The position numbers and the translations under genes were made by a program. This document shows positions 1-64,000 of a stretch of DNA of 64,000 nucleotides, in pieces (the first letter of the stretch is position 1; the number at the start of each line of letters is the position of its first letter). The DNA is from a virus. Below the pieces are notes generated by a model. That model worked only from the letters and a program-made list of their open reading frames with translations. It had not been told where the DNA came from and did not search any database. The stretch lies in IMG/VR virus record IMGVR_UViG_3300017963_000016, positions 29,472 to 93,471 of that record; one strand, given 5' to 3'.

Positions 1-453
1 ATGCTCCATATCTTCTAGCCTCTTCTTTTCTTTCTCCTTTTCAAGATTTCCAGCAAAATTAATATTATCTCCTATTTGATTTGGCTCTTCAGGTATTTTA
101 AGTTTATTATCTTCATAATGATAATCTAGCTCACTAAAATCAAGAAAGCCTAAATTTATCATTAGATCGAAAAACCTAAAAAATTCACTATAACTAGTAA
201 ATAATCTTAATCTTGAATCTTTTTTTATAAATGGGTCGATTTGATTAAATAGATTTCGATCTTCATTAAAGCTTAGAGGAGAAAATCCTAATTCAATATC
301 AGTCAATTTTTCTAATTTGCTTTTCAAGAGTTTGAGAAAAATCTTTAATGTTTTATTAGAAATTACTCCCATGTTTACCTGTAATTTATTAGCCTTTTTC
401 TGAATCGCTTTTTTACTTTCTGTTATTATTGATAATGTAGTCATACTTATCAT
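1..453 (-). CDS. Hypothetical protein, truncated by window start
   Basis: Open frame from ATG at 453 or 444 (MTTLSIITESKKAIQKK...) with GGAGG at 455-459; runs off the window without a stop; not in the ORF track. Confidence 0.65.
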   Translation of the reverse strand, partial: MISMTTLSIITESKKAIQKKANKLQVNMGVISNKTLKIFLKLLKSKLEKLTDIELGFSPLSFNEDRNLFNQIDPFIKKDSRLRLFTSYSEFFRFFDLMINLGFLDFSELDYHYEDNKLKIPEEPNQIGDNINFAGNLEKEKEKKRLEDMEH

Positions 454-520
454 TCCTCCATATTTTTTTATATTGTTTTGTTTTTTTTCTGTTTTTTTCT
501 ATTTTTAGTAGATTTGGATA

Positions 521-2740
521 TTAAAACCATTCTGTTATTTTTTTCTGAATATATTTCTTATTATCTCCTGTTCTCTTAGATAATAATTCATAAAACTTAT
601 TAAAAGTTCTATAATTGCTAGGTCTCCAGATTTTAAAGTTAAAACATTTCTTAAATAAAATCAACTGTTGATAACTCATCTTTTTATGATGTTGGCCATT
701 GATAAAATCATAAGCCATTTCTTTTGAAAAATGTTGCTTTATAAATTTAAATCTCTCTCTAAAACCTGGAAAATCTTTAAGATAGTTAATTGTTATCTCT
801 CTAAGATATATCATTGTAATTAATCTCATTGATTGAATACTCATTCTAATAAAAATGTTTAATTCTTTCAATTTTAATATAATATTCTCTATACGTTGTA
901 ATTTAGTGTTTTTACCAATACCTCTTAAATATCTATCAATAACCTCATGATCTTTAGTTTTGAATATTAAATCTTCATTATCTTGAAGTTTATAGACTAT
1001 CTGTTGGCTTATTCTCTGGATTTCATGATCAATATCTTGATAATAAGTGCCTTTAGGAGCCAATTCAATATTTTTTCTTTTAAATATTTTTTTCAATAAG
1101 AGTAATCTTTTAACTGTAAGATTTGAAATATTTGGCTTAATATCCTGGAGAAATAATTTAAATGTATTTTTATTTAATCCTTTCAAGATCATATCTACAT
1201 TATCTTTGAAATCTTTTGTTGTTAAATCTGTTTGATTATTCAAACAACTCATTAGTTTTAGAGGCAACTCTACATTACTAGTAAAGTTTGCTCTAAACTC
1301 TTTTATTTTAGGTTTTATTCTTTCCATTAGGTATTTATAATCTTGAAATGAGAAATTGAATTTAGTTAAAATCTTCAATGAGCCAATAGTCTTCATTGAT
1401 TTATGCTCTATGAGTTTAATTAATTTATCCATTAAAGGAATATTTGAAATTCCTCCTTTGGTTTTTTTATTATACTCCATTATAAGAGCCTCCATATATT
1501 TAGAGATAAAATATTCTGTATAAGGTCGATCTTCCCATTTTATTTTTTTAGATAAGAATTTAATAAAAATATAACTTAGAGGAAGATAAGAGATTTTAGT
1601 CATAATATAATCTTCCTGATCTATAAACTCCTTATCATTAAGAAAATCGTAAATGAAAGCCTCTAAATTTTTTTGCTTTTGAGTTGAGATTGTTTTTTTA
1701 GGCTCCTTAAATAATACATTTGTTTTATATCCAATTGTTTTTGATAATAATATATCATAAATTTTGAAAAGATCGTTTTGATGTAATTCCTCTAAAATTA
1801 TATCTTGGAGAATTGCTTTAAATTCTATTAAATCGAAAATCCATAGATAACCTTGAGTTATTAGGTAGCTCTGAGTAGAGAGAGTTGTTATACCTTCCAA
1901 GAATCCCTGCTTATCCTCAATAATCCTTTTAGCTATTTCCTCCTTAAATACTTTAATAGCCTTAGGCTCTCCTACATCTACTAATTTCTTTAGTAGAGGA
2001 AATGCTAAGTTCCTCCTTAAAAGCCTGGTATCAAAATCATGCTCATACCAGGCCTGGAGATTACTACAATGCCCCCAAAATTCAGTTGTTTTATCTAATT
2101 GTTTTTCCATTTTTATATGTAAATCAAATTGTTTATTATTTCCCTCATGTTTGCCAACATAAGCCTCAGCCATTTCATCAATAGAATTTAAGATTCTGTT
2201 GTTAGGAATTGTTTTTTTTGGATTCACAAATAATAGATATTTACATTGATTAAATAATTGATAAGCTCCTCCCTTATTCTTTATATATATATTGGTTTGG
2301 TTATCTTGGAGCCTTAGCTGAATAAATTTACCAATTTGAAATATAAGTTTTTCTTTTGGATTATCCCATTCAAAGTATATAAATCTATCATCTTTTGAGG
2401 GATGAGATTTATAATAATTAATAAATTTAATATAGCTTTCAAAACCCTGCTTTATGGCTAAATTATCCCATGTGTCAAAAGTGTTTGGGGAGACTGTTCT
2501 AATAGCCTCTGCTGTTGTTCTTGGCATATCCGTTAATCTGAAGTGTCGTTTTCCTGTAATTGATACATCAAATATAAACTCCCTACTTTTATCTTTATTT
2601 ACAATCCAGATATGAGCTATATCTCCAATTCCTAATTTATTACGATAATCATTCTTTCCTACAGCTCTAATACTATTTTTTAGCTCCCCTGAAATTAATT
2701 TTGGCTTTAACCAACTCATAAAAGATAATACCTGATTCAT
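521..2740 (-). CDS. ASCH/PUA-like domain fused to Lokiarchaeia-type 'EFWGHCSNLQAW' domain and helical tail
   Basis: N-term LSF...ISGELKNSIR...GD...A.KQGF (ASCH-like); middle FQIGKFIQLRL...CKYLL...SIDE...EFWGHCSNLQAWYEHDFDTRLLRRNLAFPLLKKL. Confidence 0.7.
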   Translation of the reverse strand: MNQVLSFMSWLKPKLISGELKNSIRAVGKNDYRNKLGIGDIAHIWIVNKDKSREFIFDVSITGKRHFRLTDMPRTTAEAIRTVSPNTFDTWDNLAIKQGFESYIKFINYYKSHPSKDDRFIYFEWDNPKEKLIFQIGKFIQLRLQDNQTNIYIKNKGGAYQLFNQCKYLLFVNPKKTIPNNRILNSIDEMAEAYVGKHEGNNKQFDLHIKMEKQLDKTTEFWGHCSNLQAWYEHDFDTRLLRRNLAFPLLKKLVDVGEPKAIKVFKEEIAKRIIEDKQGFLEGITTLSTQSYLITQGYLWIFDLIEFKAILQDIILEELHQNDLFKIYDILLSKTIGYKTNVLFKEPKKTISTQKQKNLEAFIYDFLNDKEFIDQEDYIMTKISYLPLSYIFIKFLSKKIKWEDRPYTEYFISKYMEALIMEYNKKTKGGISNIPLMDKLIKLIEHKSMKTIGSLKILTKFNFSFQDYKYLMERIKPKIKEFRANFTSNVELPLKLMSCLNNQTDLTTKDFKDNVDMILKGLNKNTFKLFLQDIKPNISNLTVKRLLLLKKIFKRKNIELAPKGTYYQDIDHEIQRISQQIVYKLQDNEDLIFKTKDHEVIDRYLRGIGKNTKLQRIENIILKLKELNIFIRMSIQSMRLITMIYLREITINYLKDFPGFRERFKFIKQHFSKEMAYDFINGQHHKKMSYQQLILFKKCFNFKIWRPSNYRTFNKFYELLSKRTGDNKKYIQKKITEWF

Positions 2741-3035
2741 AATCCTCTCCTTAATTTTTTTCTTTTAATAAATGAATTAGCATTATTCATAGCATTTAAA
2801 ATTCCCTTAGCTCCTCCAACTTTTAAAGTTGTTAGTAGTAATACCTTAGAGGCATTGATATAATCTTGATTATTTAGGAATTTGCTAAATAGCTTATTCA
2901 TTTTCTTTATTATTGGTAATCTTCTAGGTTTTTTAGGTATTACATACATTTAATCAATCTCCTTAAATTATATTCCTTTTTTTATCTTTGATTTCTCTTT
3001 TCTTATCTTTCTCTTCTAGTTTATTAATCCTTTTT

Positions 3036-5716: not shown

Positions 5717-6688
5717 TTAGCCATTTTTATATTTCCTCCTTATATTATTTATTCGATCTTCTTTCTGCTGTTTCTCCCTCTTGATTCTCTCAATTTTCTG
5801 AGATAACTTTTCATTCCAAAATTTTACTTTATAACATCTAATTCCAAATAATAATTGAGATTTTGGAAATTTGAAAAAAATAGCAGGATCGGTTTTTTGA
5901 GTATAGAGAGTTATTTTAATTTTATCATAATCTTCATTGAATAGATTTACTATATTAGTCAAATGAGGATATAGATCATTTTTCATTAAACAATATCTAA
6001 AAGTATTATCTTTTCTATTATATTCATAAATAGTTATACCCTTAAGCTCTCTATAATAGCTCATTACTTCAGGTAATGTTTCTTCTTTTAATTTTTTAAA
6101 TTCGGTCCAGGAGAATTTTTTTTTAAAAATTAAATCACGAGCTTTATTTTTTTTAAAAGTGAAAATTATAGTTCCTGAGGAGTTTCTTAATAAGTTTGGC
6201 TCTTGGAAATAATATAGCTCAGGATTATTATTATAAAAAGGTCTTTTCTTATTATATTCTTTAGGATAATTCAGAAATAGACTTATTACAGGATTATTAA
6301 CAAATTTACAGAGCTTTTTAGAATTTCTAATACCTAATTGATTTCCCAATCTTAATAAAAACCCATCTTCATTTTCTAAAAGCCAATTAAAAGGCTCTTG
6401 AACTCTCTCCTGGAAATATTTTATTAAAACAAATAAAGCATTAAATCTTACTATGAAATTTGAATCAGAAATTAATAAATTTTCAAAAAGACTAAATAAG
6501 GATTTATCAATCTTGAAATCATTAGTAATAAATTCTTTTATACAAAACTCCCTAGCTTGAGAATATTGATATATCTCAGCCTCTTCTATGAAATAAGCTA
6601 GAGCCTCCTGATATTGATTTTGATCTAAGGCTCCTGATAAAAATCTTTCCTTAGTATTTTCAAATTTTTTAATAGGATTATGTATCAT
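5717..6688 (-). CDS. Protein with N-terminal HEAT-like helical domain of Lokiarchaeia type
   Basis: FSLFENLLISDSNFIVRFNA...EPFNWLLENE resembles N-termini of Loki LRR proteins (from recall). Confidence 0.5.
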   Translation of the reverse strand: MIHNPIKKFENTKERFLSGALDQNQYQEALAYFIEEAEIYQYSQAREFCIKEFITNDFKIDKSLFSLFENLLISDSNFIVRFNALFVLIKYFQERVQEPFNWLLENEDGFLLRLGNQLGIRNSKKLCKFVNNPVISLFLNYPKEYNKKRPFYNNNPELYYFQEPNLLRNSSGTIIFTFKKNKARDLIFKKKFSWTEFKKLKEETLPEVMSYYRELKGITIYEYNRKDNTFRYCLMKNDLYPHLTNIVNLFNEDYDKIKITLYTQKTDPAIFFKFPKSQLLFGIRCYKVKFWNEKLSQKIERIKREKQQKEDRINNIRRKYKNG

Positions 6689-9624: not shown

Positions 9625-10827
9625 TTAGAAAAACCTCTCTAATGTATTTTGATTTGAATCATGTATCATCTTAGGAACTTTAGAAATATCATAATTACAA
9701 ATAAAGTATTCTTGTTTATCCTCTTGATTATTGGCACTAGTACAATATTTCACTTCTTGAGGAATTATATGCCAATTTTTTAGGTCCTTAAATTCCTCCA
9801 GGTAAAATTTACATTCTCCTCCTATTGAAGTATTGAAATGAAATGGAGATTCTTTCATTATATTAATTAAATCGTAGTGATCATCAAGAGTAAATCTGTA
9901 TAATGTGTAATATTCTTCGGTATCTGGATAAGGAGGATCGGCATATACAAATACTTGTTTAGTAAGACCTTTCTTTTGATTAAGAGCTGTAAGGAGACTT
10001 TTATAGACTTTCCTGAAATCATAGCTAGTTAGATTCACATATCTTAATCTTTCAATAGCTTGAGGGTCGATCATTGTATAGAGGCCTCCATCAGCATTAG
10101 ATATAGGCCTGGTTGTTTTTGGATTAGTTCCTCTAAAGCTAGGGAATATTCTACTTATATTCTTATAATATTCAATAGATTCTTTTGTTTGATATTCTTT
10201 CATAACTGTTGGGAGAGTTGCTCCTCTATAATTCATATTAACTTCAATAGCAGGTTTAATACAATATTCTAAGGCTTGATTTCTCAATTGTTTATTTAAA
10301 TTTTTAATCATTTTAATTGTCTTTTTAATCTCAGGCTGTAAATCTATATTAAATTTAAAAAGCTCTCTCAATTGTCTTATATTCCATTTATATAAATTAA
10401 CTAAATCAAGATTGAAATAACCTAGAGCAATTTGTTTTATTAAATCATAATCATAACTCCCTGAGCCTCCAAAACCAATTCTATTCGAATAGAAAAAAAA
10501 GAAAGCCTGTTCAATTTTATTATGAGGTATAATCTTACCTTTTTTCATATCATTGAAAATCTTTTGAGAAATCAATCCTAATACTCCCTCTTTTAATGAA
10601 TCAAACTCTTGAGGGAAGTCTCTTATTACTTCAAAATAATTAATATAATTTGAATCTAAATCATTAAAACATTCATACTTATATGCTTTCTTTTTATTTA
10701 GCTCATAAACACATGATCCGCAAAAAAGACTAATGAAATAATCGTGAAAAGGAGTATGATTAACTAATTCCTTTCTTAGCCTGTATTTTCCTCCTACCTG
10801 GTTTATTCCTGGATTGATGTATCCCAT
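9625..10827 (-). CDS. DNA adenine methyltransferase, Dam/D12 class, with large insertion
   Basis: GGKYRL, LFCGS, FNDLD, YADPPY motifs. Confidence 0.85.
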   Translation of the reverse strand: MGYINPGINQVGGKYRLRKELVNHTPFHDYFISLFCGSCVYELNKKKAYKYECFNDLDSNYINYFEVIRDFPQEFDSLKEGVLGLISQKIFNDMKKGKIIPHNKIEQAFFFFYSNRIGFGGSGSYDYDLIKQIALGYFNLDLVNLYKWNIRQLRELFKFNIDLQPEIKKTIKMIKNLNKQLRNQALEYCIKPAIEVNMNYRGATLPTVMKEYQTKESIEYYKNISRIFPSFRGTNPKTTRPISNADGGLYTMIDPQAIERLRYVNLTSYDFRKVYKSLLTALNQKKGLTKQVFVYADPPYPDTEEYYTLYRFTLDDHYDLINIMKESPFHFNTSIGGECKFYLEEFKDLKNWHIIPQEVKYCTSANNQEDKQEYFICNYDISKVPKMIHDSNQNTLERFF

Positions 10828-10844
10828 TTCTTTCTTTTCCTCAT

Positions 10845-11554: not shown

Positions 11555-12265
11555 CTATTCATAATAATCCTCCTTATCAAACCATTTGTCTAATGTTAAA
11601 TTTAATTTCTCCCTTTCTTTCTCTAAATCATTTTGTTTATGAAAAAATGATCTTGTAATAGGAGAGAAATTATTTCCTGCTTTAAATATAGCGATTACTA
11701 AAGGGAATGTGGAGCAAGAGCCTGATTTTTTCTTTTTAGTAAGTTTAGTATAACAAGCCTCACATATTCTTTTCTTATTATAGTTTATTGATTTTTGGAT
11801 TAATACTTTACATAAGGAGCATTGGATAAGGAAATTAACTCTTCCCTTACAATATAGTATCATATAAGCTTTCATAATCCATTTATGCCAATATTTTGTA
11901 TCTGTTCTAGGAGGCAAAATCATTACTACTTTAGTATTTTCCTTTTGGCTTTCATTATAAGCTTTTTTAACCCACTCTCCCATTGCTGAATAAGGAGGAT
12001 TGAGGAATATATTATTTCCTCTCCAGGATTTTATTAACCCATTATCCTTTTTGGTAAAATGTTTTTTAGTTAAAGCATTTTCATCAGTGCTAGCAGGGTC
12101 TAAAGTAAACTTAAATTCAGGCTGTTTATTTGTATTCTGAGGAGGAAAAATTAAATTCATTTGTTTTTCTACTAATTCAAAAAACGGTTTTGGAGTTTGC
12201 CAATTATCCAATGAACTTTCATTCCTGGAGTAAAAACCAGGCTCCTCTTTTTTACTATTTAGCAT
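11555..12265 (-). CDS. Phage-type DNA N6-adenine methyltransferase with Zn-finger insert
   Basis: WQTP..FF, LDPAS...NA, DNGL..SW, FLNPPYS, PPRTDT.YWH, GRVNF; CxxC...CxxC insert. Confidence 0.9.
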   Translation of the reverse strand: MLNSKKEEPGFYSRNESSLDNWQTPKPFFELVEKQMNLIFPPQNTNKQPEFKFTLDPASTDENALTKKHFTKKDNGLIKSWRGNNIFLNPPYSAMGEWVKKAYNESQKENTKVVMILPPRTDTKYWHKWIMKAYMILYCKGRVNFLIQCSLCKVLIQKSINYNKKRICEACYTKLTKKKKSGSCSTFPLVIAIFKAGNNFSPITRSFFHKQNDLEKEREKLNLTLDKWFDKEDYYE

Positions 12266-12267
12266 AA

Positions 12268-14211: not shown

Positions 14212-16218
14212 TTTAATTTCCTCCTGGTATATGTATAATAATCTTTCTTTTGGGAAATTTATTTAGATATTTGTTTTGTAATATCAAGCATATACAGGGA
14301 TTAAACCCACATTTATTACATCCCATTTCTAAGCCTCCAATTTTTTAAATAAGTAATCTCTATAAGAAATATATCGGTTTAATAACCATTTATAGCTTTT
14401 AATAGTTGATAAAGTTGTTTTACTCTTACATTTTCGGTCTCTATAAAAAAATGTTTTTCTAGTTAATTCTCTTAAGATATTTTTTGTTTCTTGGAAAAAA
14501 TTATCATAAGTTATTTTTCTATAATACTTACATTTATATTTTCTCAGAAAGTTGCCAAACTCAGAGATTACCTTAGGAGATTTACAGCCTAAGCATATTA
14601 TCCCATCCTCATCAGGCTCAGGAGAGATATAATTATTACAGATAACACATAAACATTTAGGAAACATTACAGAATTACATTTTTCACATCTAATAAATCG
14701 ATCAATTCTTTTCACTTTACTCATAGTTAAATCCCATATTCTTTTTTTATAATTCTAATTAATTCTTGTATTAATTTATCTATATCAGAGCCATATACAC
14801 ACATAGAGCCAATAGGAGTAATTGGATATATATGTAATTCCCATAACTTATTCTCATTTATACAAATATCCTTATCATTCAATATAAAAACAAAATTCCT
14901 ATGTTCTTTATACTCCTCAAGATATTCTTTAACAGTTCTATGTTCAATCTTATGATCATTATAAGTAATTATTACATTACAGTATTTTTCTAATTCTTTT
15001 AACATAACTCTCAAATCCATTTACAGCTAGGATATTTAGCTTTTAATTTTTTATATTCCTCAGATTCTTTAAACCCTTTGGCAAAAAACCTGGTTTTGTT
15101 TAAAATTACTTTTATTAATTCATTCAATAGTTTTTCTTTAGTGAAATCCTTATAGACCTCATAAATTTCCAAAAGCTTTTCTTTTTTTAACTTCCTTAGC
15201 TCTCTTTTGTCGACAATCTTAATAAGCTCATCCCTTTCTTTTGTTGCTTTCTCATCTATCTCAAATGTAGAATAATCATTACAATCATTACATTTTTTTA
15301 CTCCTAAAAAACAATCTACATTTGAATTACTACAATCTTTTTTCATTTTGTTTTATTCCTCCACTAATTTAAAGATTTTTAATATTTCTTCATTGATACA
15401 ATATAAATCCTGCTCTTCAATAAGCTCCTGCTTATCTCCAAAAGCCTCAGTAAGAATATCCAGGATTTTTTTCTTTAATCCTTTTATTCCTTTATTCTTT
15501 TCCTCTTCTATTGATTTTAACATCTTATTAGCCTCAGCCATAATATCATTTAAATTCTTATCTAATATATTTTGATTTGCCTCAAATACAGCTTGAATAG
15601 AAATACATAAATCTCCAATGAGATGAATATCTAAAGGCTGTTTCTGAATTAGATTAATCCATAAAACTTTTGAAATAACAAAAAGCTCCTGGAACTTATT
15701 TTTGGAAATGTGAATTAAATTATTCCAATTAATTGTTGGTTTAGGCATATCTATCCTCTTTTATTATTGTTTGATTAAAATCCTCCATGTTTATTACATG
15801 GAAATTATTTGTTATTGGCTCATCCCTGATCTCAAATCCAATGGAATTGAAATAGTCTCTACATTTTCTAACATCATTTATTCGATTTTTAAAATAATTG
15901 GTAATTTCTGAGCTTGAAGAAAACAGTCTATTTTGATCTCTCTTAAAATTAAAAACAATAGAATACATATTAATCTCAACAGATTCTATGCCTCCAAAAT
16001 CAGCCTTATTTATATAAACATAATATTTTGGTCTTGGCCAATTATTTAGAATAATAGGTTTAAATTTAATTTCTTCATTATTGATTATTTTAGTTTTAAC
16101 TTTATATGAATCATTCTGTTTAATCGGTATATATTTATTAAGCCAATTAGGTATTGAATCTAATGGTAATCTAAAAGAAAGATTATGTATTTCATATTTC
16201 CCTAATTCCTTACTTAGT

Positions 16219-16542
16219 TTAGGCATATTTATCCCTCTTATATTTTATATTATATTTTTTTAATAAAGTTCTATATAGATTTTGCCATTCTTCTCTATGG
16301 AGTCTATTATCCTCATTATTCGGCAATAAAGCATGAGTAATTTCATGAATAAACCATTTTTTAATATCATTACTAGTTTTATCTAAATATATCAGCTTAA
16401 GATCATTTATACATTCATTCTCTCCTTTAATTTCCCATAATTCTAATTCCCAATCTTCTAAATTATTTTCTCTGCTTACAATTTCAATAAGTTTAATTAA
16501 ATCCTCTGATATATATTCTTGTTCTATATTCCTTATTTTCAA
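16219..16542 (-). CDS. SprT-like HExxH zinc metalloprotease minimal domain
   Basis: FIHEITHAL......H.EEW. Confidence 0.65.
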   Translation of the reverse strand: MKIRNIEQEYISEDLIKLIEIVSRENNLEDWELELWEIKGENECINDLKLIYLDKTSNDIKKWFIHEITHALLPNNEDNRLHREEWQNLYRTLLKKYNIKYKRDKYA

Positions 16543-22413: not shown

Positions 22414-23169
22414 TCATTGAATTAAATATGGTATATACTTTAATTTTAATTTAATATTTCTTAGCTCAGTTTGGATTTTCTGAATAAAGGCTTTTGTTTT
22501 TTCAGTTCCCGGATTATTTAGATTACATTTTTTAGTGTCAAACCCTAAATAAATTTTCTCAGGATTAATTTGTTTTATTAAATCGAAAAATTCTTCTAAA
22601 TCAAAATCTAGTATTGGCTCTATGGTTATCCTCTTCCTTTCATGTTCAATCTCCAGGAAGTCTTTAAATCTCTTTATTGGTAATGGAGCTTTTGATATTA
22701 AATCATATCCTTTTTTTTTAAACTCTTCAGGAACTTTAAAGTATTCTTTATCTCTATTAGTCTCAAGAGTAATGCCTAATACTGTATTCTGAGGAAAATC
22801 ATATTTATTAAAACATTCTGGAGCTTTTGATTGAAAAAAGAATGTTTTGGCTTGGAGTTTTTTAACTCTTTCTAAAATAATATTTATCCATAGCTCCTCT
22901 GAAAAATAAATATCAGAGGAGGAATTAACCCAAATAAACTGATCTCCACTAGTTCTAGGTAATGAATCAAATAATCTTTCATAGTGAAAGTGAGGCTCAT
23001 AGAGATAACATTTACTTTCTCCTAATTCTTGGTTTATATACCTACAGTTATGCCTCTGTCTTTTCATAGTCTTTTGAAATGATTTACTACAGTATAAACA
23101 ATCAAATTTACAGCCTATGCAAACATTCCATTGTTTTTTAGAATCTGAATACATATTATTCTCAGGCAT
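22414..23169 (-). CDS. DUF5131 (gp37/gp68-like) radical-SAM-related protein
   Basis: WNVCIGCKFDCLYC (CX3CX2C), SSDIYF, FQSKAP, GITLET, ITIEPI. Confidence 0.85.
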   Translation of the reverse strand: MPENNMYSDSKKQWNVCIGCKFDCLYCSKSFQKTMKRQRHNCRYINQELGESKCYLYEPHFHYERLFDSLPRTSGDQFIWVNSSSDIYFSEELWINIILERVKKLQAKTFFFQSKAPECFNKYDFPQNTVLGITLETNRDKEYFKVPEEFKKKGYDLISKAPLPIKRFKDFLEIEHERKRITIEPILDFDLEEFFDLIKQINPEKIYLGFDTKKCNLNNPGTEKTKAFIQKIQTELRNIKLKLKYIPYLIQ

Positions 23170-23377
23170 ATTTCTTACACTTCCTTATTTTTCTTTTTAT
23201 TTATTGAATCAAATTTACAGCCAATAATTACATTCCAATTTTTTAGTGAATCTGAATAAATATTTCCTATATATACTTTCTCAGGATTAATATTTTTTAT
23301 GTTGGATAGAACTTCCTCTAAATCAAAATCTAGTATTGGCTCTATGGTTATCCTCTTCCTTTCATGTTCAATCTCCA
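22595..23377. repeat. 61 bp exact direct repeat (22595-22655 and 23317-23377)
   Basis: TCTAAATCAAAATCTAG...TTCAATCTCCA is identical in both copies. Confidence 0.95.
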
Positions 23378-23618
23378 AGAGATCAATACGTTTACAGTTC
23401 AGGTATTGTTTTGTAAATAAATATAATAATATTGAAGTTAGATAAATAGTATTCAAAAACCAAAAATGATGAGGAGAATAATTCCAATTGAAAGCTTGAG
23501 AGGAATTTAATAAGTTAAATATCCATAGTAAAAGTATTAATAATTGAACACTAAACCATAAAAATAAGAATCCTAAGATTGTTAATTTGATTAATTCTTT
23601 TATCCTTTTACTAAGCAT
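23175..23618 (-). CDS. Two-TM protein fused to permuted fragments of the adjacent DUF5131 gene
   Basis: Two hydrophobic helices, then LEIEHERKRITIEPILDFDLEE...INPEK, then YSDS..WNV.IGCKFD. Confidence 0.6.
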   Translation of the reverse strand: MLSKRIKELIKLTILGFLFLWFSVQLLILLLWIFNLLNSSQAFNWNYSPHHFWFLNTIYLTSILLYLFTKQYLNCKRIDLLEIEHERKRITIEPILDFDLEEVLSNIKNINPEKVYIGNIYSDSLKNWNVIIGCKFDSINKKKNKEV

Positions 23619-25949: not shown

Positions 25950-26021
25950 ATTTCTTTCACTCCTATTGATAATTTCTTTCACTCCTATTGATAATTTCTT
26001 TCACTCCTATTGATAATTTCT
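25950..26021. repeat. Perfect 22 bp tandem repeat x3.3 (ATTTCTTTCACTCCTATTGATA)
   Basis: Copies at 25950, 25972, 25994 plus a partial copy; spans the junction of ORFs 25963..26226 and 25751..25960. Confidence 0.95.
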
Positions 26022-26222: not shown

Positions 26223-26666
26223 TCAACTCTCCTGTTTTAATTTCTCAATAGAATTACATTGACAACAGTATAACTCAATATTCTCATTATTCCATAATTG
26301 AATCATATCCCTCACTTTTTCTCTATTAGAATCAATATATTTTACATTACTTAGGTAATATTCATAGAAATTAAGTATTTTATTACAATTAAAGCATAGT
26401 CCATATTTTATTTCTTTTAACTCTCTCTCAATGATTAGATTATCAATTATAGTATAAAGATAACTTTCAGGAACAGATAATTTATTGAAATTGCTTTTAA
26501 AAACACTAAAAATAATTACAGGGATTATAACAAAATCTATATAAAAAACAATTATAAAGAAATTAGGGAAATAATAAGAAAAAATAATTGATATATACAT
26601 TGAGAAAACCCATATAATATATAAAATAGGAATTAATATTTTTTCTTTCATTCTGTTGGCCTCCAA
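26223..26666 (-). CDS. Two-TM protein with Loki-type CxxC...LW...YCCxC domain
   Basis: CFNCNKILNFYEYY...QLWNNENIELYCCQC. Confidence 0.6.
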   Translation of the reverse strand: MEANRMKEKILIPILYIIWVFSMYISIIFSYYFPNFFIIVFYIDFVIIPVIIFSVFKSNFNKLSVPESYLYTIIDNLIIERELKEIKYGLCFNCNKILNFYEYYLSNVKYIDSNREKVRDMIQLWNNENIELYCCQCNSIEKLKQES

Positions 26667-27179: not shown

Positions 27180-27569
27180 CTAATCATTCTTATTTCTCAC
27201 TATCCTCTGATCTTGTAATGTAAAACCTAATTTCTCTGCTAAAATATGTAAATGATCATAAAACCAACTCTGAGAGCATTTCAAATATCTTAAAGTAAAT
27301 TCTATAGGAGTATGATCTGAAAATTCTAACATTCTTTCCATTCTTTCAATCATAACCTCTAAGGGAGGCTCCAGGTTTGATGAGGAGAGTTTTTCATTCC
27401 TCCAAGATTCAAATCTTTCTAATAATTTAAAAGTCTCAGGTATAGTAAAATAATTCTGAATACACTTTTCAAATACTTCCTCTTTTGTCCTCCCAAAAAA
27501 GCCAATTAACTCCTCAGCTAATTTAGAATAAATTGGTAATACTTTTATTTCAAATTTTTCTTTCTCCAT
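27180..27569 (-). CDS. RHH-like N-terminus plus winged-helix/PCI-like C-terminus
   Basis: GRTKEEVFEKCI; MERMLEFSD..PIE...L..S...F...L..LAEKLGFTL. Confidence 0.4.
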   Translation of the reverse strand: MEKEKFEIKVLPIYSKLAEELIGFFGRTKEEVFEKCIQNYFTIPETFKLLERFESWRNEKLSSSNLEPPLEVMIERMERMLEFSDHTPIEFTLRYLKCSQSWFYDHLHILAEKLGFTLQDQRIVRNKND

Positions 27570-35603: not shown

Positions 35604-35604
35604 A

Positions 35605-38215: not shown

Positions 38216-38334
38216 ATCAGAATAGATATTTTTTTTTTACAATATATGAAGAGGAGATATTCTTATTTAACTACGATCCCCTGATGGATTAGTAATGATC
38301 TTTCTGAGGATTGGAAAAAAAATCAAAGAATAAT

Positions 38335-38509
38335 AAACATCCCCTCCCTTTTATACCCTCCTGGTTTTTGGGCATTTTTTCGGGAGTCTATCCAGGAGTT
38401 GAATACAAGCTTTCTTAATCCCTCCTGTATTTACCTGTTTTTACTATCCCTGAGCCTTTTCCATTGATCTTTCAATGGCCAAAAAATCTCTACATATAAT
38501 GGGATGTTT
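38335..38509 (-). ncRNA. Predicted structured RNA (closing helix, three hairpins, possible pseudoknot), family unknown
   Basis: Complementary pairs 38335-43/38501-09, 38461-67/38472-78, 38402-09/38424-31, 38358-64/38392-98; G.U pairs work only on the minus strand. Confidence 0.5.
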
Positions 38510-38662
38510 TAACCCCCTGCGGTTTTTTCACAATTTCATACTTCATATACCAGGATAACATTCAAAATCATTAACGATTTAGCCTATAAATTAAGAAGAA
38601 TTATATTTTCAGAAATTAAATGGGATGACTTTACAGAGCTTTAGGTGTTAGCCTATGGGGAG

Positions 38663-38738
38663 ATAAAACTTCACATTTTATAAAAACTTATCAAAACTTT
38701 AATAACATATAAAAACTCAAACAAAAACATATAAAAAC
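38663..38738 (-). promoter_or_regulatory. Candidate promoter or iteron zone upstream of the long block
   Basis: AACATATAAAAAC at 38704 and 38726 (22 bp apart) plus further AAAAC tracts; reads TTTTTATAT (TATA-like) on the minus strand. Confidence 0.45.
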
Positions 38739-39010
38739 GTAAATTTTAGAGCCTGAAATTTTTGCTATGGTAAATTTATATTGAAAAAATCAAATTTGCT
38801 CTAAAAATTATGTTTAATTTGATTTTCTCTGAGATAAGGTTAATTATTAATAATATTAGTTTAAAGAGGATTGTAGGAAATTAGTTCTATTCAGCTCCCG
38901 GATAATTTTAAGGAATTTTTATCTCAAGAGATAATTTGAAAGCATTAAATCTCTTTAGCTGATTAGATTTATTTATAAAAACTATATTATAAAATTTTAA
39001 TCTGGAGTTT

Positions 39011-41304: not shown

Positions 41305-41976
41305 CTATTTAATGATAGGTTTAAATTCTTTAGAGGCTGTAGAGTAATCCCTAATTCCTCTGCTAGGAATTTTAGCAATTATCTTAAATGGATAATTTGC
41401 TTTAGCATTGGCTTTTGTTAAGATTTTATAATGATGTTGGCCTCCAATATAGTAAATATTTTTTCTTTTTGGATTGTCTTTCTTTAGATTAATTAGGAAT
41501 TGGCTCAGCCTGTCAATAAATATTTGTTTTTCAGCTTTTGTAAGAAGTTTTGGAGGATAATTATAATCAGGCATATCGTCTTCAATAGAATAAGGAATGG
41601 CTGTTAAAGGCTCTGAAATAATTATTTTAGTAAATCTCTTATCTCTAGTTATTACACTGAGGAATTGATGTGATGTTGATTGAGAGATTTTCTTTTTTCC
41701 ATATTTACAACGTGTCTTTCTAGCTGAGGCACATGGGAGAAATACAATTGGTTTTTGATTATCTGGATTATAGGCTAAGAGCTTTTTGTTAAACCAATTA
41801 GTATTAGACTCAGTTAAGAATGAGGCATTAAAGGGTTTATCAACTTCAGGTTTTTTACCTGTTTTAATATATTGAATGAGTTGAGCCTTATTCATTTTGG
41901 ATATTCCTGTTAATTTTTTCTTTTTAGCAATCTCAATAAGCTCTGATTTAAGCATATCTTCATATTTTTTAGCCAT
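41305..41976 (-). CDS. Rho-N/HeH domain fused to DUF5591 (archaeosine synthase ArcS-like) domain
   Basis: KSELIEIAKKKKLTGISKMNKAQLI; FLPCASARK, SQSTSHQF, ISEPL..IP, YNYPP. Confidence 0.7.
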   Translation of the reverse strand: MAKKYEDMLKSELIEIAKKKKLTGISKMNKAQLIQYIKTGKKPEVDKPFNASFLTESNTNWFNKKLLAYNPDNQKPIVFLPCASARKTRCKYGKKKISQSTSHQFLSVITRDKRFTKIIISEPLTAIPYSIEDDMPDYNYPPKLLTKAEKQIFIDRLSQFLINLKKDNPKRKNIYYIGGQHHYKILTKANAKANYPFKIIAKIPSRGIRDYSTASKEFKPIIK

Positions 41977-44291: not shown

Positions 44292-45020
44292 TTAAATGGC
44301 TCCAGGATATGCTGTTTGTCTTTTTTTTCTTCTAGTTCTAATAATAAGAAATCCAATTAAAACACTCATAATTGAAAAGACAAATATAGATATGAGAATA
44401 AAAAGAAGATCACTCTCTGCAATTGAAAAGTCTCCAAAAGTTATTAACTCCTCTTCTATTATGGTTATTCCTGAAGTAAAATCTACTCCAATTTTTTGAG
44501 GAGCTAATTCTTTTAATTCTTTCCTATAAGATATTATTTCAAAATTATTAATATTAAATGGTATTCCAATTGAGATTAATAAATTTCCCTCATGTAATGA
44601 TACATACGATTGTTTTGATATAATAAAGAAAGGCTCTGAACTCCCATTTGATTGTATTTTCAAATCATATCCCTCTATTTTACTGAAATCTGTAAAATCT
44701 TTAAACTCTAATTTATCAGGGTCAAAAAAGATATAGAAAATAAATAGATATTTGTCAAAATCTTCTTTTTTTAAATCATATTTGAAATCAATATGGAGAT
44801 TATAAGCCATAGTTGAGTAGTGTCTAATAATATCAATATTCTCATAGCCAATTTGAACATTCTCAGTTTTGAGATTTCCAAAATATTCGATTACATCATT
44901 CTGAGTATCAGTTCTTATATCTACAATTGGAGGAGGAGGCATTTCAGCTTTAGAAATTCCAACAAATATATTAAGAGTTATAAGAATTAGAAGAGTAAGA
45001 AATATTTTATTAGTTTTCAT
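44292..45020 (-). CDS. Secreted, C-terminally membrane-anchored surface protein
   Basis: Signal peptide, beta-rich ectodomain, C-terminal TM helix followed by RTRRKKR. Confidence 0.75.
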   Translation of the reverse strand: MKTNKIFLTLLILITLNIFVGISKAEMPPPPIVDIRTDTQNDVIEYFGNLKTENVQIGYENIDIIRHYSTMAYNLHIDFKYDLKKEDFDKYLFIFYIFFDPDKLEFKDFTDFSKIEGYDLKIQSNGSSEPFFIISKQSYVSLHEGNLLISIGIPFNINNFEIISYRKELKELAPQKIGVDFTSGITIIEEELITFGDFSIAESDLLFILISIFVFSIMSVLIGFLIIRTRRKKRQTAYPGAI

Positions 45021-55149: not shown

Positions 55150-56001
55150 TTAAGGCTTTGAGCCTCTTTGTCTTGATTTCTTTTTTGGTTTGGCTCCCTT
55201 TTTTGCTCTTCTATTATATCTTATAAATGCTAATCCTGTAATAAGGCCTATTAAAACAACTCCTCCAAATGTTATTATTCCCATTGTTATAATATAAGTA
55301 TAATCTTGTTTAACCTGTATTAACACATGGTCAAAATATAGCTCAAAATCAGCTCCATAATTGAGTTTTATCCAAACTAATTCAATATTTAAGCAATTGC
55401 TCTCATCCCTCTCAGTAAAATCCTTATGTATAATTTCTTTCTTTTCAAAATTGAATGTTATTTCATCATTCCTAGAACTCCATAAGGAATTTTCAGCTAT
55501 ATCGTCTTTGCTATCTTGATCTTCTATAGAAGAATTATAGAATACTAACTCATCAATTAGATTATCATGGAAATCTAAAGCTATGTAGAATTTCTTATCA
55601 ATTTGGTTTCTTAAAAGAAGTATGAAATCTGTTGTGGTTTGATTTAATACAAGATCATCTCTCAATTTCATATCTATTTCAATTTCATCCTTATCCTCTT
55701 TAAATTTCAGCTCTGATATATCAACATCTTTAGGTTTTGATTTAATTTGTTTTTCCTCAGGATTATCAATTTTGTAATGAATTATCTCTAATAGATCATC
55801 GAAATTATCTATATCCCATTCATAAGGCCATATAATTTCCTCTAATAATGAGATAATTAATAATGGATTTATTTTATGTATATCCTCCTCATTATCCTTA
55901 ATTATAATATCTAGGTCTTCTGATTCTTCAGCATAAACAATTGGAATAGATAGGGAGATTAAGATCAAAAAGAGAAAAGCCATAGGTTTGTATGCTTTCA
56001 T
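55150..56001 (-). CDS. Secreted, acidic, C-terminally anchored surface protein
   Basis: Signal peptide, D/E-rich ectodomain, TM helix, K/R-rich tail. Confidence 0.75.
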   Translation of the reverse strand: MKAYKPMAFLFLILISLSIPIVYAEESEDLDIIIKDNEEDIHKINPLLIISLLEEIIWPYEWDIDNFDDLLEIIHYKIDNPEEKQIKSKPKDVDISELKFKEDKDEIEIDMKLRDDLVLNQTTTDFILLLRNQIDKKFYIALDFHDNLIDELVFYNSSIEDQDSKDDIAENSLWSSRNDEITFNFEKKEIIHKDFTERDESNCLNIELVWIKLNYGADFELYFDHVLIQVKQDYTYIITMGIITFGGVVLIGLITGLAFIRYNRRAKKGAKPKKKSRQRGSKP

Positions 56002-58027: not shown

Positions 58028-58028
58028 T

Positions 58029-61762: not shown

Positions 61763-63015
61763 TTAAATCCCTTTAATTTTTTAATTAAATAAGTATTAGA
61801 TTCAGTATATAAAAAAATTAGGTTTGAGTCAATATTTCTTTTAGAATCACTAATAGCCTTTTCTTTTATTATTAAAATACCTATACAGAAAATAGCAAAT
61901 GAATAGAAATACTAGCATAGTTATTAATCCCTCAATGCTAATTAATTCTGCTGTTATAACAGTTGATAATCCAATATCAGAGAGAAAGTCTAAATTACCT
62001 GCTATTAGATAATATACACTAAGAAATACCATAAGGCCTAGAATAACAGTAATTCCTAGAAAAATTACAGTTCCTAAAGAATATACTAATTTTTTTTGAT
62101 TACCACTCCAATTTCTAGGGTTTAATCTCCTGCTTTGATAACCACTCATGTTTTATCAATAAAAAGTTTTTTTTTAAATAAAAAATAGAATATGAAAATA
62201 AAAAGATTAGGTTTAATTCTTAATTAACTTCAGGATCGATGTTTAAGGCTTTTAGGGGAGTTTTAGTTAAAGCAGGTTTAAAGATAAAATGTTTAAATCC
62301 TAATTGAGTTGGGAAATTATGACTAGGTGTTTTTTGAGGAATCCATGCTAGTAAATATATTCTTCCAGGATACCTTATTTTTCCAATATAGAATTGAACT
62401 TTCCCTGTTTTACCTTTATACTTTACATCTTTAGCCAAAATGGATTTATATCTATAAGTTCCTGAGTTAATTAATCCTGAGTATTTGCTATAATCTATAT
62501 TTGCTATTCCTGAAATCTTTAGCTTTTGTTTTATTTTATTGTTGATAATAGGTAATATAAATTCCTTAGCAAATTTCATAGTTTCTTTAATATCCTTATC
62601 GAATTGCTCTCTAGAACTCATTTCACTCACTTATTTTCTTCTTGGTTTTCTTAAATCATATTTCTTTATTTTGGCCTTAGTATCTAATAATTTCCCATCT
62701 AACTTTATAGAAATAGCTAAGGTTCTATATTCTTTCTTTACTAACTGAAAAACAGCATATCCATTTAAAGTTCTAAAAGATTTCATTTTAGCACTCTGAG
62801 GAAAATCTTTTTTAACACTTTCAATCCCTTTTAATGAGGCTGATTTGCTAGAATAGAATCTATAAAGACTCCAGGCATAAGTTCTACCTAAAACCCATAA
62901 TTGATTTTTCCATAAATAAACTTCAGAGATGGGAGTTATTTTTCTTGGTCCAGGCATATTAATCATTTTAAATTTTCTAATTAATACATTATTTTACAAA
63001 AATAAAAAGATTAAG

Positions 63016-63714
63016 TTAAAAATTTAATCCAAAATAAATGAATAAAAAGCCTATTCCAATGCCTATTATTCCCATAATAACATCTTGGATAATATTAGGT
63101 AATGGCTCTGATATGAATTTGGTATAGGAGCCTGTTATTTGATATTTTTTATTAAACATTCGATTAGCCATTTCAAAAGTAAATTCTATAAATTCAAATA
63201 ATAAAACAAAAAGAAAAGTAATCCAGATTGATTCTTGAGAAAAAACTAGTGTCAAGAATTGGGATATACTTTTAACCTCAGGAAGAGAAATCTCAAAATC
63301 AAAAATAACTATTGTATAAAAATAGAAAGCTAAGCCTCCTGCTAAATGGCTCCATATATCTATAGCTTTCCAGGAGGCAAAAAAACTATTAGCCTCAGGC
63401 CTTTTGAATAATCCTTTCCTCATTCCTGATACTTGAATCATTACAAAAATCCAGAAAAACACATTAGCCTCTTGATAATACTTGTTTTCTGTGTTTGAAT
63501 AGAAGAAAATAATTATTCCTAATAAAACCAAGATTATGTAAAGGGAGATATACCATATATTCTTATGAGCTGAACTATGAAAAACTTTAGGCTCTCTTCT
63601 TTTTTTTTTCCTCCTGGAATTATTATTACTTTTAATTCTATTCAGCTCCTGGATAATTTTAAGAATGAATAAATGGATTATTTTCTTCCCATATATCTTG
63701 ATAAATAAATTCAA
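63016..63714 (-). CDS. Multi-TM protein with D.W.H...E..E...D motif (DUF2238/VanZ-like putative membrane hydrolase)
   Basis: DIWSHLAGG, LFEFIEF, EPLPNIIQDVIMG within TM helices. Confidence 0.55.
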   Translation of the reverse strand: MNLFIKIYGKKIIHLFILKIIQELNRIKSNNNSRRKKKRREPKVFHSSAHKNIWYISLYIILVLLGIIIFFYSNTENKYYQEANVFFWIFVMIQVSGMRKGLFKRPEANSFFASWKAIDIWSHLAGGLAFYFYTIVIFDFEISLPEVKSISQFLTLVFSQESIWITFLFVLLFEFIEFTFEMANRMFNKKYQITGSYTKFISEPLPNIIQDVIMGIIGIGIGFLFIYFGLNF

Positions 63715-64000
63715 TTAAACAATTCAGCAGATCATCTTTAAAATCTTTAAAATATGAAAGATTAAAGCAATCCCAATCCAGAAATAACTCTTTATAAGAA
63801 AAGATAATATCGGTTATCACTTTTATAATTTCAGGTAGATCATTTTTTATAGCCTCATCATATAGAATTGCTAAACTCATAGGAAAAATCTTAATTTCAT
63901 TCTCTATTTCTAAGTCTATAATTTTTATCAATATTCCTTTAAACTCTACATTCTTTAATGGTTTTCCCTTAAGCATAGTCTTAGAGAAATATTGTAAAGC

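What the first reader, a model, noticed from the sequence alone, without database searches (positions are those of the whole stretch)
1..64000. Segment of a very large virus or extrachromosomal element of Asgard (Lokiarchaeia-like) archaea
Seen: about 130 ORFs on one strand for 64 kb, very low GC, no housekeeping genes, phage-like accessory genes, TATA/oligo-T signals. Recalled: four unrelated domain types that I associate with Lokiarchaeia proteomes (521..2740, 5717..6688, 26223..26666 family, 27180..27569). Inference: structural and replication modules lie outside the window, so the element exceeds 64 kb. Long single-strand coding with perfect tandem repeats is reminiscent of Borg-like elements, but the implied host is different.
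Basis: partly seen in the sequence, partly recalled or inferred. Interest (0 to 1): 0.85.

Follow-up and report, generated by a model that had tools for sequence, protein, structure and literature searches.

The report
Circular 93-kb Asgard archaeal mobile element
The window is two thirds of a complete, circular 93-kb virus-like element that most likely lives in Lokiarchaeia-type Asgard archaea, has no recognisable capsid, tail or polymerase genes, and so probably belongs to an undescribed lineage of archaeal mobile elements.

Summary
The window has 135 minus-strand ORFs, 25-28% GC, no tRNA, rRNA or housekeeping genes, DNA-methylase-type accessory genes and oligo-T signals after genes.

The window is bases 29472-93471 of a 93,471-bp IMG/VR virus record with a 123-bp terminal repeat. 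That repeat lies inside a gene, so the replicon is circular or concatemeric, not linear.

The Asgard link is supported by homology:
- Residues 132-313 of the 739-aa protein are a domain found in more than 1000 proteins. Every named one is Asgard.
- The 129-aa protein has full-length homologues in 54 of 301 Asgard genomes, all in the class of a Lokiarchaeota MAG.

No CRISPR or physical host link was obtained.

The Borg analogy fails: the element is circular and the window holds one perfect tandem repeat.

No capsid, portal, terminase, polymerase or integrase was found anywhere. The rest of the genome holds a membrane-protein module and the element's single P-loop protein, a RecA-like ATPase fused to an Hjc-type nuclease. 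That protein defines a family of about 141 sequences, present in 29 of 400 Asgard genomes.

Best reading: a new lineage of Asgard virus or plasmid, probably membrane-enveloped.

The parts
1..64000 (-). 68% of a 93,471-bp element (record bases 29472-93471). It holds 135 co-oriented ORFs with a median length of 116 aa.
521..2740 (-). 739-aa protein (P0001). Residues 132-313 are an uncharacterised domain found so far only in Asgard archaea, with the core motif EFWGHCSNLQAW...RNLAFPLLK. In host genomes this domain is fused to LRR, Ras/Arf GTPase or TPR modules. The N- and C-terminal parts are shared only with one 73-kb relative.
27180..27569 (-). 129-aa protein (P0004). It is a homologue of a roughly 124-156-aa protein that gave one match per genome in 54 of 301 sampled Asgard genomes, all in the class of MAG Loki_b31.
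26223..26666 (-). 147-aa protein (P0003) with two transmembrane helices and a C-terminal zinc ribbon. The ribbon has weak matches (E 3e-6 to 1e-3) in 22 of 301 Asgard genomes.
5717..6688 (-). 323-aa ORFan (P0002). It has no Pfam family and no homologue in the word-indexed search of 5.8 billion proteins.
30418..31377 (-). C5 cytosine DNA methyltransferase.
   Evidence: PF00145, 2.6e-46; TIGR00675
42363..43211 (-). Dam-type (D12 class) N6-adenine DNA methyltransferase with a DPPY motif.
11555..12265 (-). Phage-type N6-adenine DNA methyltransferase (PF05869) with an NPPY motif.
9625..10827 (-). 400-aa protein with an N-terminal D12-class methyltransferase domain and a DPPY motif.
32913..33866 (-). 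Radical-SAM protein with CX3CX2C at residue 112.
   Evidence: PF04055, 1.1e-5, below Pfam's cut-off. One search lists one window ORF matching phrog_9298 (radical SAM, 3.5e-82); that this is the ORF is my assignment, not stated in the tally.
41305..41976 (-). 223-aa protein with a DUF5591 domain (the C-terminal domain of archaeosine synthase).
   Evidence: One search lists one window ORF weakly matching NF040592 ArcS (4.1e-5); that this is the ORF is my assignment, not stated in the tally.
22414..23618 (-). A DUF5131-like protein (with a CX3CX2C motif) and a neighbouring partial paralogue.
34441..36180 (-). Three tandem paralogues (205, 182 and 191 aa; 37-46% identical) of unknown function.
15741..16226 (-). 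161-aa paralogue (58% identity over 141 aa) of part of the 473-aa zinc-ribbon, winged-helix and coiled-coil protein encoded just outside the window (record 27976-29397).
44292..45020 (-). Membrane protein with a hydrophobic segment at each end (residues 4 and 198 of 242), read as a signal peptide plus C-terminal anchor (type I layout).
55150..56001 (-). Membrane protein with a hydrophobic segment at each end (residues 3 and 235 of 283), read as a signal peptide plus C-terminal anchor (type I layout).
25950..26021 (.). The only perfect tandem repeat in the window (22 nt x 3.3 copies), straddling the boundary of two ORFs.
38216..38907 (.). The largest non-coding gap in the window (692 nt, 29% GC). 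It separates a region of small genes with their own upstream gaps (38-64 kb) from a tightly packed block led by Shine-Dalgarno motifs (1-38 kb).
63659..64000 (-). C-terminal 113 codons of a 151-aa ORF that is whole only when the record is circularised. It starts at record base 237.
63878..64000 (.). One copy of the 123-bp direct terminal repeat. It lies inside the coding sequence of the junction-spanning ORF.

Best explanation
The window is 64 kb of a complete, circular (or circularly permuted) extrachromosomal element of about 93.3 kb. The element comes from marine sediment, and its host is most probably an Asgard archaeon of the class Lokiarchaeia (Promethearchaeia). It is not a head-tailed virus and not a Borg.

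Shown:
- All genes run in one direction.
- The window carries two parts. The first (38-64 kb) is a region of small genes with their own upstream gaps and oligo-T stops. The second (1-38 kb) is a Shine-Dalgarno-coupled block rich in DNA-modification enzymes (four methyltransferases, radical SAM), zinc-ribbon and winged-helix proteins, and host-derived Asgard genes.
- The remaining 29.5 kb holds a 17-kb module of membrane proteins. These include signal-peptide plus C-terminal-anchor (type I layout) proteins, multi-pass proteins including an Rce1-like protease, and small proteins with basic N-terminal tails.
- That module is followed by the element's only P-loop protein, a RecA-like ATPase fused to an Hjc-type (PD-(D/E)XK) nuclease.
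- The same order (membrane module, then ATPase-nuclease) recurs in a 73-kb relative and in a 36-kb contig of an Asgard MAG.

Inferred:
- The membrane module builds a lipid-enveloped particle or vesicle that carries the DNA between cells.
- The ATPase-nuclease resolves branched or concatemeric replication products into unit genomes and may drive them into the particle.
- Replication relies on host enzymes recruited by the element's DNA-binding proteins.
- The methyltransferases protect the DNA from host restriction.

I cannot settle whether it is a true virus or a vesicle-type or other plasmid.
For: Complete record and topology:
- The IMG/VR virus record is 93,471 bp, has direct terminal repeats, and CheckV rates it 100% complete. 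The repeat is an exact 123 bp.
- After circularisation a 151-aa ORF spans the junction, with the repeat inside it.
- A 14,392-nt contig from a different assembler (Logan), built from public runs flagged as possible sources of this DNA, runs 9.2 kb past record base 1.
- In the 73-kb relative, homologues of genes from both ends of our record lie next to the ATPase gene.

Asgard link:
- The P0001 domain matches 1016 proteins. All named ones are Promethearchaeota, Loki-, Heimdall-, Hod-, Thor- or Helarchaeota.
- A pattern scan of 185,579 prokaryote species gave 431 confirmed loci. Most of the 79 kept are titled as Asgard (Promethearchaeota and related candidate phyla); the rest are 'uncultured archaeon' bins with no phylum given.
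- The domain is recognisable at the DNA level (up to 76% identity) in well over 100 of 400 Asgard genomes.
- P0004 has full-length homologues in 54 of 301 Asgard genomes. All fall among the handles that the class-level search around Loki_b31 returned. The ESM Atlas's nearest clusters are Promethearchaeota.
- The ATPase-nuclease family is present in 29 of 400 Asgard genomes. Its one taxon-named member is from Candidatus Harpocratesius, family Promethearchaeaceae.
- Loci fetched from Asgard genomes of that class have 25-30% GC, against 26.7% for the element.
- Public runs holding the DNA are labelled sediment metagenome and seawater metagenome; the second lies in a study with marine-sediment runs.

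Not a tailed virus:
- Pfam and PHROG scans of all 176 ORFs found no capsid, portal, terminase, tail, polymerase, helicase or integrase.
- No ORF carries a canonical Walker A motif. The only P-loop is NKSGLGKS in the 609-aa protein.

ATPase-nuclease:
- The AF2 model has mean pLDDT 90.5.
- Residues 493-608 match Hjc resolvases (Z 10.7, rmsd 2.4 A over 102 residues; Foldseek probability 1.0).
- Residues 30-311 match RecA/Rad51 (Z about 9 over 160-179 residues).
- K102, S103, D214, E215 and K542 are invariant, and P524, D525, S540 and E561 nearly invariant, across 54 family members.

Module conservation:
- Protein identities with the 73-kb relative across the membrane module and ATPase gene range from 26% to 71%; the three genes at the ATPase end are 64-71% identical.
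- The gene order is the same in G147:C265.
Against: - There is no CRISPR-spacer match, Hi-C link or co-abundance evidence for the host. The link rests on homology of a few genes, which could have been acquired horizontally.
- No virion protein is identified, so 'virus' rests on IMG/VR's automatic call and on the membrane module.
- Divergent capsid proteins have been missed before in Asgard viruses. The HK97-fold capsid gene of Fenrir was first overlooked (PMC13700489).
- The roles proposed for the membrane module and for the ATPase-nuclease are inference from architecture and conservation only.
- No replication protein is identified.
Confidence: 0.62

Rival explanations
1. It is a non-viral plasmid (extrachromosomal element) of an Asgard archaeon that never forms its own particle. 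On this reading the membrane proteins are cargo or surface-remodelling genes, and the ATPase-nuclease serves plasmid multimer resolution or maintenance.
For: - No capsid or packaging genes were found.
- The topology is circular.
- A multimer-resolving nuclease fits plasmid maintenance.
- Gu et al. [quoted passage not shown]
- The ATPase family also occurs on chromosome-sized Asgard contigs.
Against: - No partition ATPase, replication initiator, conjugation ATPase or integrase was found. The genome has only one P-loop protein.
- The membrane module plus ATPase is the best-conserved and syntenic part among relatives, as expected of a morphogenesis or transfer core rather than cargo.
- Strict one-strand coding and the abundance of tiny ORFs and anti-restriction methylases are more virus-like.
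- IMG/VR's pipeline classed it as a virus.
Confidence: 0.25
2. It is a head-tailed virus (Caudoviricetes) of Asgard archaea whose structural proteins are too divergent for profile searches.
For: - All large Asgard viruses known so far (up to 117.5 kb) are head-tailed.
- Capsid genes were overlooked at first in Fenrir.
- The size matches NMV1, a 96.6-kb myovirus.
Against: - No PHROG or Pfam structural hit in 176 ORFs.
- Only 14 ORFs are 300 aa or longer. The longest are accounted for as the Asgard-domain protein, methylases, membrane proteins or the ATPase-nuclease, leaving nothing of portal or tape-measure size unexplained.
- The single P-loop protein carries an Hjc-type nuclease, not the RNase-H-type nuclease of large terminases.
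- Seventeen kb are taken up by membrane proteins.
Confidence: 0.07
3. It is a phage or plasmid of a low-GC bacterium, or of a non-Asgard archaeon, that picked up a few Asgard genes.
For: - GGAGG-type ribosome-binding sites precede 54% of the close-packed genes, and such sites are used in bacteria too.
- The methylases and the PAPS reductase have many phage relatives.
- There is no CRISPR link to Asgard.
Against: - Three unrelated gene families point to Asgard genomes. One of them is restricted to a single Asgard class among the genomes sampled.
- tblastn of the two signature proteins found no match in 50,697 phage records. The ATPase also found none in 72,556 plasmids.
- Oligo-T runs directly after stop codons fit archaeal termination.
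- The closest structural matches of the nuclease domain are archaeal and archaeal-virus Hjc proteins.
Confidence: 0.05
4. It is a Borg-like element.
For: Long single-strand coding and one perfect tandem repeat.
Against: - It is circular or concatemeric, not linear with long inverted terminal repeats.
- It is 93 kb.
- It has one perfect repeat array in 64 kb rather than pervasive arrays.
- It has no metabolic cargo.
- Its gene affinities are Asgard.
Confidence: 0.01

Closest known systems
Complete circular Asgard CRISPR-targeted elements without a recognisable capsid gene (Gu et al. 2026, PMC13700489)
   Same: Asgard-linked, circular, lacking a major capsid protein, and unclear whether virus or plasmid.
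   Different: Those were linked to hosts by spacers and six carry integrases. This element has no spacer link and no integrase. Sequence relatedness could not be checked because their sequences and supplements were not available here.
Head-tailed Asgard viruses (Verdandiviridae, Fenrir, Skoll, Jinchivirus, NMV1)
   Same: Same host phylum, overlapping genome size (up to 117.5 kb; NMV1 is 96.6 kb), and multiple DNA methyltransferases (JinchiV2 has three).
   Different: This element shows no HK97 capsid, portal, terminase or tail genes. tblastn of the two signature proteins found no match in GenBank phage and archaeal-virus records.
Membrane-vesicle type archaeal elements: Pleolipoviridae and plasmid-vesicle elements such as pR1SE (from my own knowledge, not tested here)
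   Same: No capsid. A conserved block of a spike-like type I membrane protein, small membrane proteins and one NTPase, on a circular dsDNA replicon.
   Different: Those are haloarchaeal and 7-50 kb.
Archaeal Holliday-junction resolvase Hjc, including the copies in rod-shaped viruses (for example SSRV1 and SIRV)
   Same: The C-terminal 115 residues of the 609-aa protein have the Hjc fold (Z 10.7), with conserved acidic and lysine positions.
   Different: Here the domain is fused to a RecA-like P-loop ATPase with a long helical hairpin inserted after Walker A. Neither Pfam nor PHROGs holds this architecture.
Borgs of Methanoperedens
   Same: Archaeal extrachromosomal DNA with long same-strand gene runs.
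   Different: Borgs are linear with inverted terminal repeats, 0.6-1 Mb long, have pervasive perfect tandem repeats and carry metabolic cargo. None of these features is met here.

Membership tests
Caudoviricetes (head-tailed viruses) | HK97-fold major capsid protein | tested here: inconclusive
   No Pfam or PHROG capsid family in any of the 176 ORFs. Structure prediction was possible for one protein only, so a very divergent capsid protein cannot be excluded.
Caudoviricetes (head-tailed viruses) | Large terminase: ATPase with an RNase-H-like nuclease | tested here: not met
   The only P-loop protein in the genome has an Hjc-type PD-(D/E)XK nuclease domain. There is no terminase family hit.
Caudoviricetes (head-tailed viruses) | Portal and tail proteins | tested here: inconclusive
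   No family hit. Among the 14 ORFs of 300 aa or more, none is left unexplained at portal or tape-measure size. No fold search was made for these proteins.
Borg elements | Linear genome with long inverted terminal repeats | tested here: not met
   A 123-bp direct repeat lies inside a gene, and another assembler's contig runs through the record's end.
Borg elements | Pervasive perfect tandem repeats | tested here: not met
   One perfect array in 64 kb.
Asgard archaeal mobile element (host assignment) | Genes whose homologues are confined to Asgard genomes | tested here: met
   The P0001 domain and P0004 meet this. The ATPase family is also present in 29 of 400 Asgard genomes, but whether it is confined to Asgard was not tested.
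Asgard archaeal mobile element (host assignment) | CRISPR spacer match from an Asgard array | tested here: inconclusive
   DNA searches of 400 and 151 Asgard genomes with 40 kb of the window gave only AT-rich chance matches, and no repeat arrays lay at the seven hit sites checked. The tool scores only two candidates per genome, and the other 53 kb of the record was not searched.
Hjc-type resolvase (C-terminal domain of the 609-aa protein, outside the window) | Hjc / PD-(D/E)XK fold with conserved acidic and lysine residues | tested here: met
   Z 10.7, rmsd 2.4 A over 102 residues to 1ob8_A. K542 is invariant, and P524, D525, S540 and E561 are nearly invariant in 54 members. Activity was not tested.
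Conjugative plasmid | VirB4- or TraG-type transfer ATPases | tested here: not met
   The genome has no second P-loop protein and no such family hit.
Temperate or integrative element | Integrase and a tRNA attachment site | tested here: not met
   No integrase family hit and no tRNA in the record.

The most novel reading that the evidence does not exclude
The element is the genome of a new lineage of capsid-less, membrane-enveloped viruses of Lokiarchaeia, and would be the largest non-tailed archaeal virus genome known. On this reading, about a dozen membrane proteins with basic tails wrap the DNA directly. A RecA-like ATPase fused to an Hjc nuclease does the work that a terminase does in tailed viruses, cutting and loading unit genomes. 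Relatives of this lineage would be widespread, partly integrated, in Asgard genomes.
Probability: 0.3. Interest if true: 0.8.

Novelty: new variant of a known kind. Interest (0 to 1): 0.6.

Why it matters
[quoted passage not shown] All large Asgard viruses described so far are head-tailed.

A complete 93-kb circular element would add a lineage of Asgard mobile elements if the reading is right. It has no known hallmark genes.

It also carries host-derived Asgard domains of the kind fused to small GTPases and LRR proteins. These could be tools for manipulating host signalling or membrane processes.

The ATPase-nuclease family gives a practical marker for finding more such elements and their integrated copies.

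Tried and rejected
Spacer hunt:
- The genome search with 20-kb DNA queries against 400 and 151 Asgard genomes.
- The first search was swamped by the Asgard domain. The second gave only low-complexity AT-rich matches.
- No repeat arrays lay at the seven hit sites checked.
- The method scores two candidates per genome and is not a real spacer search.

Related records:
- IMG/VR scans with P0001, A1 and A5 found nothing.
- tblastn of the ATPase and of P0001 against 50,697 phage records, and of the ATPase against PLSDB, gave no match.
- The earlier-findings look-up for look-alike stretches in other genomes gave nothing.

Structure and PDB searches:
- The first AF2 run of the ATPase with a two-sequence alignment failed (pLDDT 40). 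It worked with 54 sequences.
- PDB sequence searches of the 472-aa and 562-aa membrane proteins and of the 473-aa zinc-ribbon protein gave nothing significant. The AspA winged-helix hit at E 0.15 is not evidence.

Other blanks:
- The junction-spanning ORF, which another first-stage note called a longin domain, has no Pfam hit on either half.
- No RNA holder was listed among public runs.
Its record is not held by the genome search.
- The supplements of PMC13700489 are not held, and no paper mentions the relative's scaffold id.

Full report
**What the window is.** The 64-kb window is bases 29472-93471 of a single-contig IMG/VR virus record of 93,471 bp. IMG/VR classes the record as having direct terminal repeats, and CheckV rates it 100% complete. 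I confirmed an exact 123-bp direct repeat at the two ends and a genome GC of 26.7%.

**Check of the observation.**
- The window has 166 ORFs of 60 aa or more. After removing nested frames, 135 lie on the minus strand. The figure is 176 in the whole record, with 87% coding density.
- GC is 25-28% throughout, and GC skew is uniformly negative with no turning point.
- There are no tRNAs in the window or the rest of the record and no Rfam family.
- Median protein length in the window is 116 aa. Ninety-nine of the 135 proteins are 150 aa or shorter.
- Pfam, PHROG and NCBIfam scans of all 135 window ORFs found no housekeeping genes.
- What they did find:
  - a C5 methyltransferase (30418-31377);
  - two D12/Dam-type methyltransferases (9625-10827, 42363-43211);
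  - a phage-type N6A methyltransferase (11555-12265);
  - a radical-SAM protein (32913-33866);
  - DUF3850, DUF488, DUF6011, DUF5131 and a DUF5591/ArcS-like protein (41305-41976);
  - several winged-helix regulators.
- Runs of seven or more T on the coding strand follow the stop codon within 40 nt in 34% of intergenic gaps, against 3% at random.
- GGAGG-like motifs precede 54% of close-packed genes, against a 10% background.
- Only one perfect tandem repeat exists, at 25950-26021.

**Topology.**
- If one copy of the 123-bp repeat is removed and the ends are joined, a 151-aa ORF runs across the junction. It goes from record base 237 down to 1, then from 93348 down to 93130, and the repeat lies inside its coding sequence.
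- A 14,392-nt contig from a different assembler (Logan) covers record bases 1-3000 and continues 9.2 kb beyond base 1. It was built from public runs flagged as possible sources of this DNA.
- In the only close relative, a 73,241-bp metagenome contig (Ga0180433_10000412, 27% GC), homologues of genes from both ends of our record lie next to the ATPase gene.
- The replicon is thus circular, or circularly permuted and concatemeric. It is not linear with special ends.

**Host.**
- Residues 132-313 of the 739-aa protein at 521-2740 match 1016 proteins at E <= 0.001. Every one that carries an organism name is from Asgard archaea. There the domain is fused to leucine-rich repeats, Ras/Arf GTPases or TPR repeats.
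- A degenerate-pattern scan of one genome for each of 185,579 prokaryotic species found 431 confirmed loci. Most of the 79 kept are titled as Asgard (Promethearchaeota and related candidate phyla); the rest are 'uncultured archaeon' bins with no phylum given.
- The domain core is even detectable at the DNA level, at up to 76% identity, in well over 100 of 400 Asgard genomes.
- The 129-aa protein at 27180-27569 has full-length homologues, with one match per genome, in 54 of 301 sampled Asgard genomes. All 54 fall among the handles that the class-level search around MAG Loki_b31 returned. The ESM Atlas independently puts it nearest to Promethearchaeota-only clusters.
- The zinc ribbon of the protein at 26223-26666 has only weak matches.
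- The protein at 5717-6688 has no homologue at all.
- Loci fetched from genomes of that class have 25-30% GC.
- The DNA occurs in runs labelled sediment metagenome and seawater metagenome; the second lies in a study that also has marine-sediment runs.
- I obtained no CRISPR or physical link. My two DNA searches of Asgard genomes yielded only AT-rich chance matches.

**What kind of element.**
- Scans of the 41 ORFs outside the window found two PAPS-reductase-family proteins, an Rce1-like membrane protease and winged-helix proteins. They found no capsid, portal, terminase, tail, polymerase, primase, helicase, partition or integrase family.
- Record bases 3.5-20 kb are a module of membrane proteins. 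Eighteen of the 28 ORFs in the first 20 kb have predicted transmembrane helices. The module includes:
  - proteins with a signal peptide and a C-terminal anchor (562 aa and 282 aa);
  - a 62%-identical pair of 315 and 317 aa;
  - multi-pass proteins;
  - many small proteins with long basic N-terminal tails.
- No ORF in the element has a canonical Walker A motif. The single P-loop is NKSGLGKS in the 609-aa protein at record bases 1114-2943.

**The ATPase-nuclease.**
- The word-indexed search found only one relative (64% identity, on the 73-kb contig).
- An exhaustive HMMER search of 1.84 billion representatives found 141 proteins at E <= 0.001, mostly 530-620 aa.
- In an alignment of 54 members, K102 and S103 (Walker A), D214 and E215 (Walker B) and K542 are invariant. 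P524, D525, S540 and E561 are nearly so.
- The query matched no Pfam family, and other members gave only weak hits to generic AAA/STAND ATPase and unrelated families. The protein matched no PHROG either.
- With that alignment AlphaFold2 gave a model with mean pLDDT 90.5.
- Residues 493-608 superpose on archaeal Holliday-junction resolvase Hjc (Z 10.7, rmsd 2.4 A, 102 residues; Foldseek probability 1.0). The best viral match is the Hjc of a Saccharolobus rod-shaped virus.
- Residues 30-311 resemble RecA/Rad51, and more weakly RuvB, a conjugation coupling protein and Zot (Z 7.8-9.0).
- A long helical hairpin (about residues 102-186) is inserted after Walker A.
- A profile of the family matches 29 of 400 Asgard genomes, some on contigs of 1 Mb or more.
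- The one taxon-named member is from Candidatus Harpocratesius, family Promethearchaeaceae.

**Conserved core.**
- The 73-kb relative shares the membrane module and the ATPase in the same order. Protein identities across that stretch range from 26% to 71%; the three genes at the ATPase end are 64-71% identical. The Asgard-domain protein is only 34% identical.
- A 36-kb contig of an Asgard MAG (G147:C265) shows the same order. It runs from large membrane proteins with a signal peptide and C-terminal anchor, through multi-pass proteins including the Rce1-like one and a 192-aa protein, to the ATPase-nuclease and then very basic proteins.
- That contig also holds a MiaB/RimO-family gene (E 9e-33 to RimO). 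This hints that the copy sits in or beside host DNA.

**Interpretation.**
- Shown: a complete, circular or permuted, one-strand-coded 93-kb element. Its gene affinities are with Lokiarchaeia-class Asgard archaea. It lacks the detectable hallmark genes of tailed viruses. Its conserved core is a membrane-protein module plus an ATPase-Hjc fusion.
- Inferred:
  - The membrane module forms an enveloped particle or vesicle.
  - The ATPase-nuclease resolves replication intermediates and perhaps loads DNA.
  - Host enzymes replicate the element.
  - The four methyltransferases and other modification genes in the window protect it from restriction.
- I put about 0.6 on 'new lineage of Asgard virus-like element with a membrane-based transmission module'. 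I put about 0.25 on a non-viral plasmid, under 0.1 on a cryptic tailed virus, about 0.05 on a non-Asgard host, and essentially nothing on a Borg-like element.

**Comparison with what is known.**
- Published Asgard viruses range from about 9 to 117.5 kb, and the large ones are head-tailed.
- The nearest published category is the set of nine complete circular, CRISPR-targeted Asgard elements without a recognisable capsid gene in Gu et al. 2026. I could not compare sequences with them.
- tblastn of the Asgard-domain protein found no match in 50,697 GenBank phage and archaeal-virus records. The ATPase found none there or in PLSDB.
- The record itself is public in IMG/VR, but I found no paper describing it or its relative.

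Noticed in passing
window 63659-64000 plus record bases 1-237 (L002:1-237): A 151-aa ORF is whole only across the joined ends, and the 123-bp terminal repeat is coding sequence. Another first-stage note calls this ORF a longin domain. Neither half has a Pfam hit.
   Followed up: partly
record bases 1114-2943 (L002:1117-2943, outside the window): A RecA-like ATPase with a roughly 85-residue helical hairpin inserted after Walker A, a helical middle part and a C-terminal Hjc-type nuclease.
   Followed up: yes
G147:C265 (L111 and L112): A 36-kb contig of an Asgard MAG holds the same module order (membrane proteins, then ATPase-nuclease). It also holds a MiaB/RimO-like gene and a zinc-ribbon protein that looks TFB-like by eye. 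The zinc-ribbon protein had no PDB hit. This may be an integrated relative.
   Followed up: partly
Asgard genomes, homologues of P0004: In at least eleven MAGs the homologue lies 25.3-26.6 kb from the start of its contig. This suggests a conserved host neighbourhood that ends at a recurrent assembly break.
   Followed up: no
window 25950-26021: A perfect 22-nt x 3.3 tandem repeat. Its period is not a multiple of three, and it overlaps the end of one ORF and the start of the next.
   Followed up: no
window 41305-41976 and 32913-33866; record bases 24535-27351: A DUF5591/ArcS-like protein, a radical-SAM protein and two PAPS-reductase (PP-loop) proteins occur together. This could be a base-modification route of the archaeosine or 7-deazaguanine kind. 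No transglycosylase was seen.
   Followed up: no
window 59474-59540 and 62150-62215: The motif TAATCTTTTTATTTTC recurs about 55 nt upstream of two unrelated small genes, like a shared promoter element.
   Followed up: no
record bases 3500-20000 (outside the window): About a dozen otherwise unrelated membrane proteins begin with long basic tails containing (S/T)RRK-like motifs ahead of the first transmembrane helix. The same kind of tail appears in window proteins at 57390-57800, 61850-62149 and 63016-63714.
   Followed up: partly
public runs X1 and X2: Both runs give a contig of exactly 14,392 nt over the same place, at depths of 12.5 and 12.1. They are probably one data set filed twice, so they do not count as independent occurrences.
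   Followed up: no
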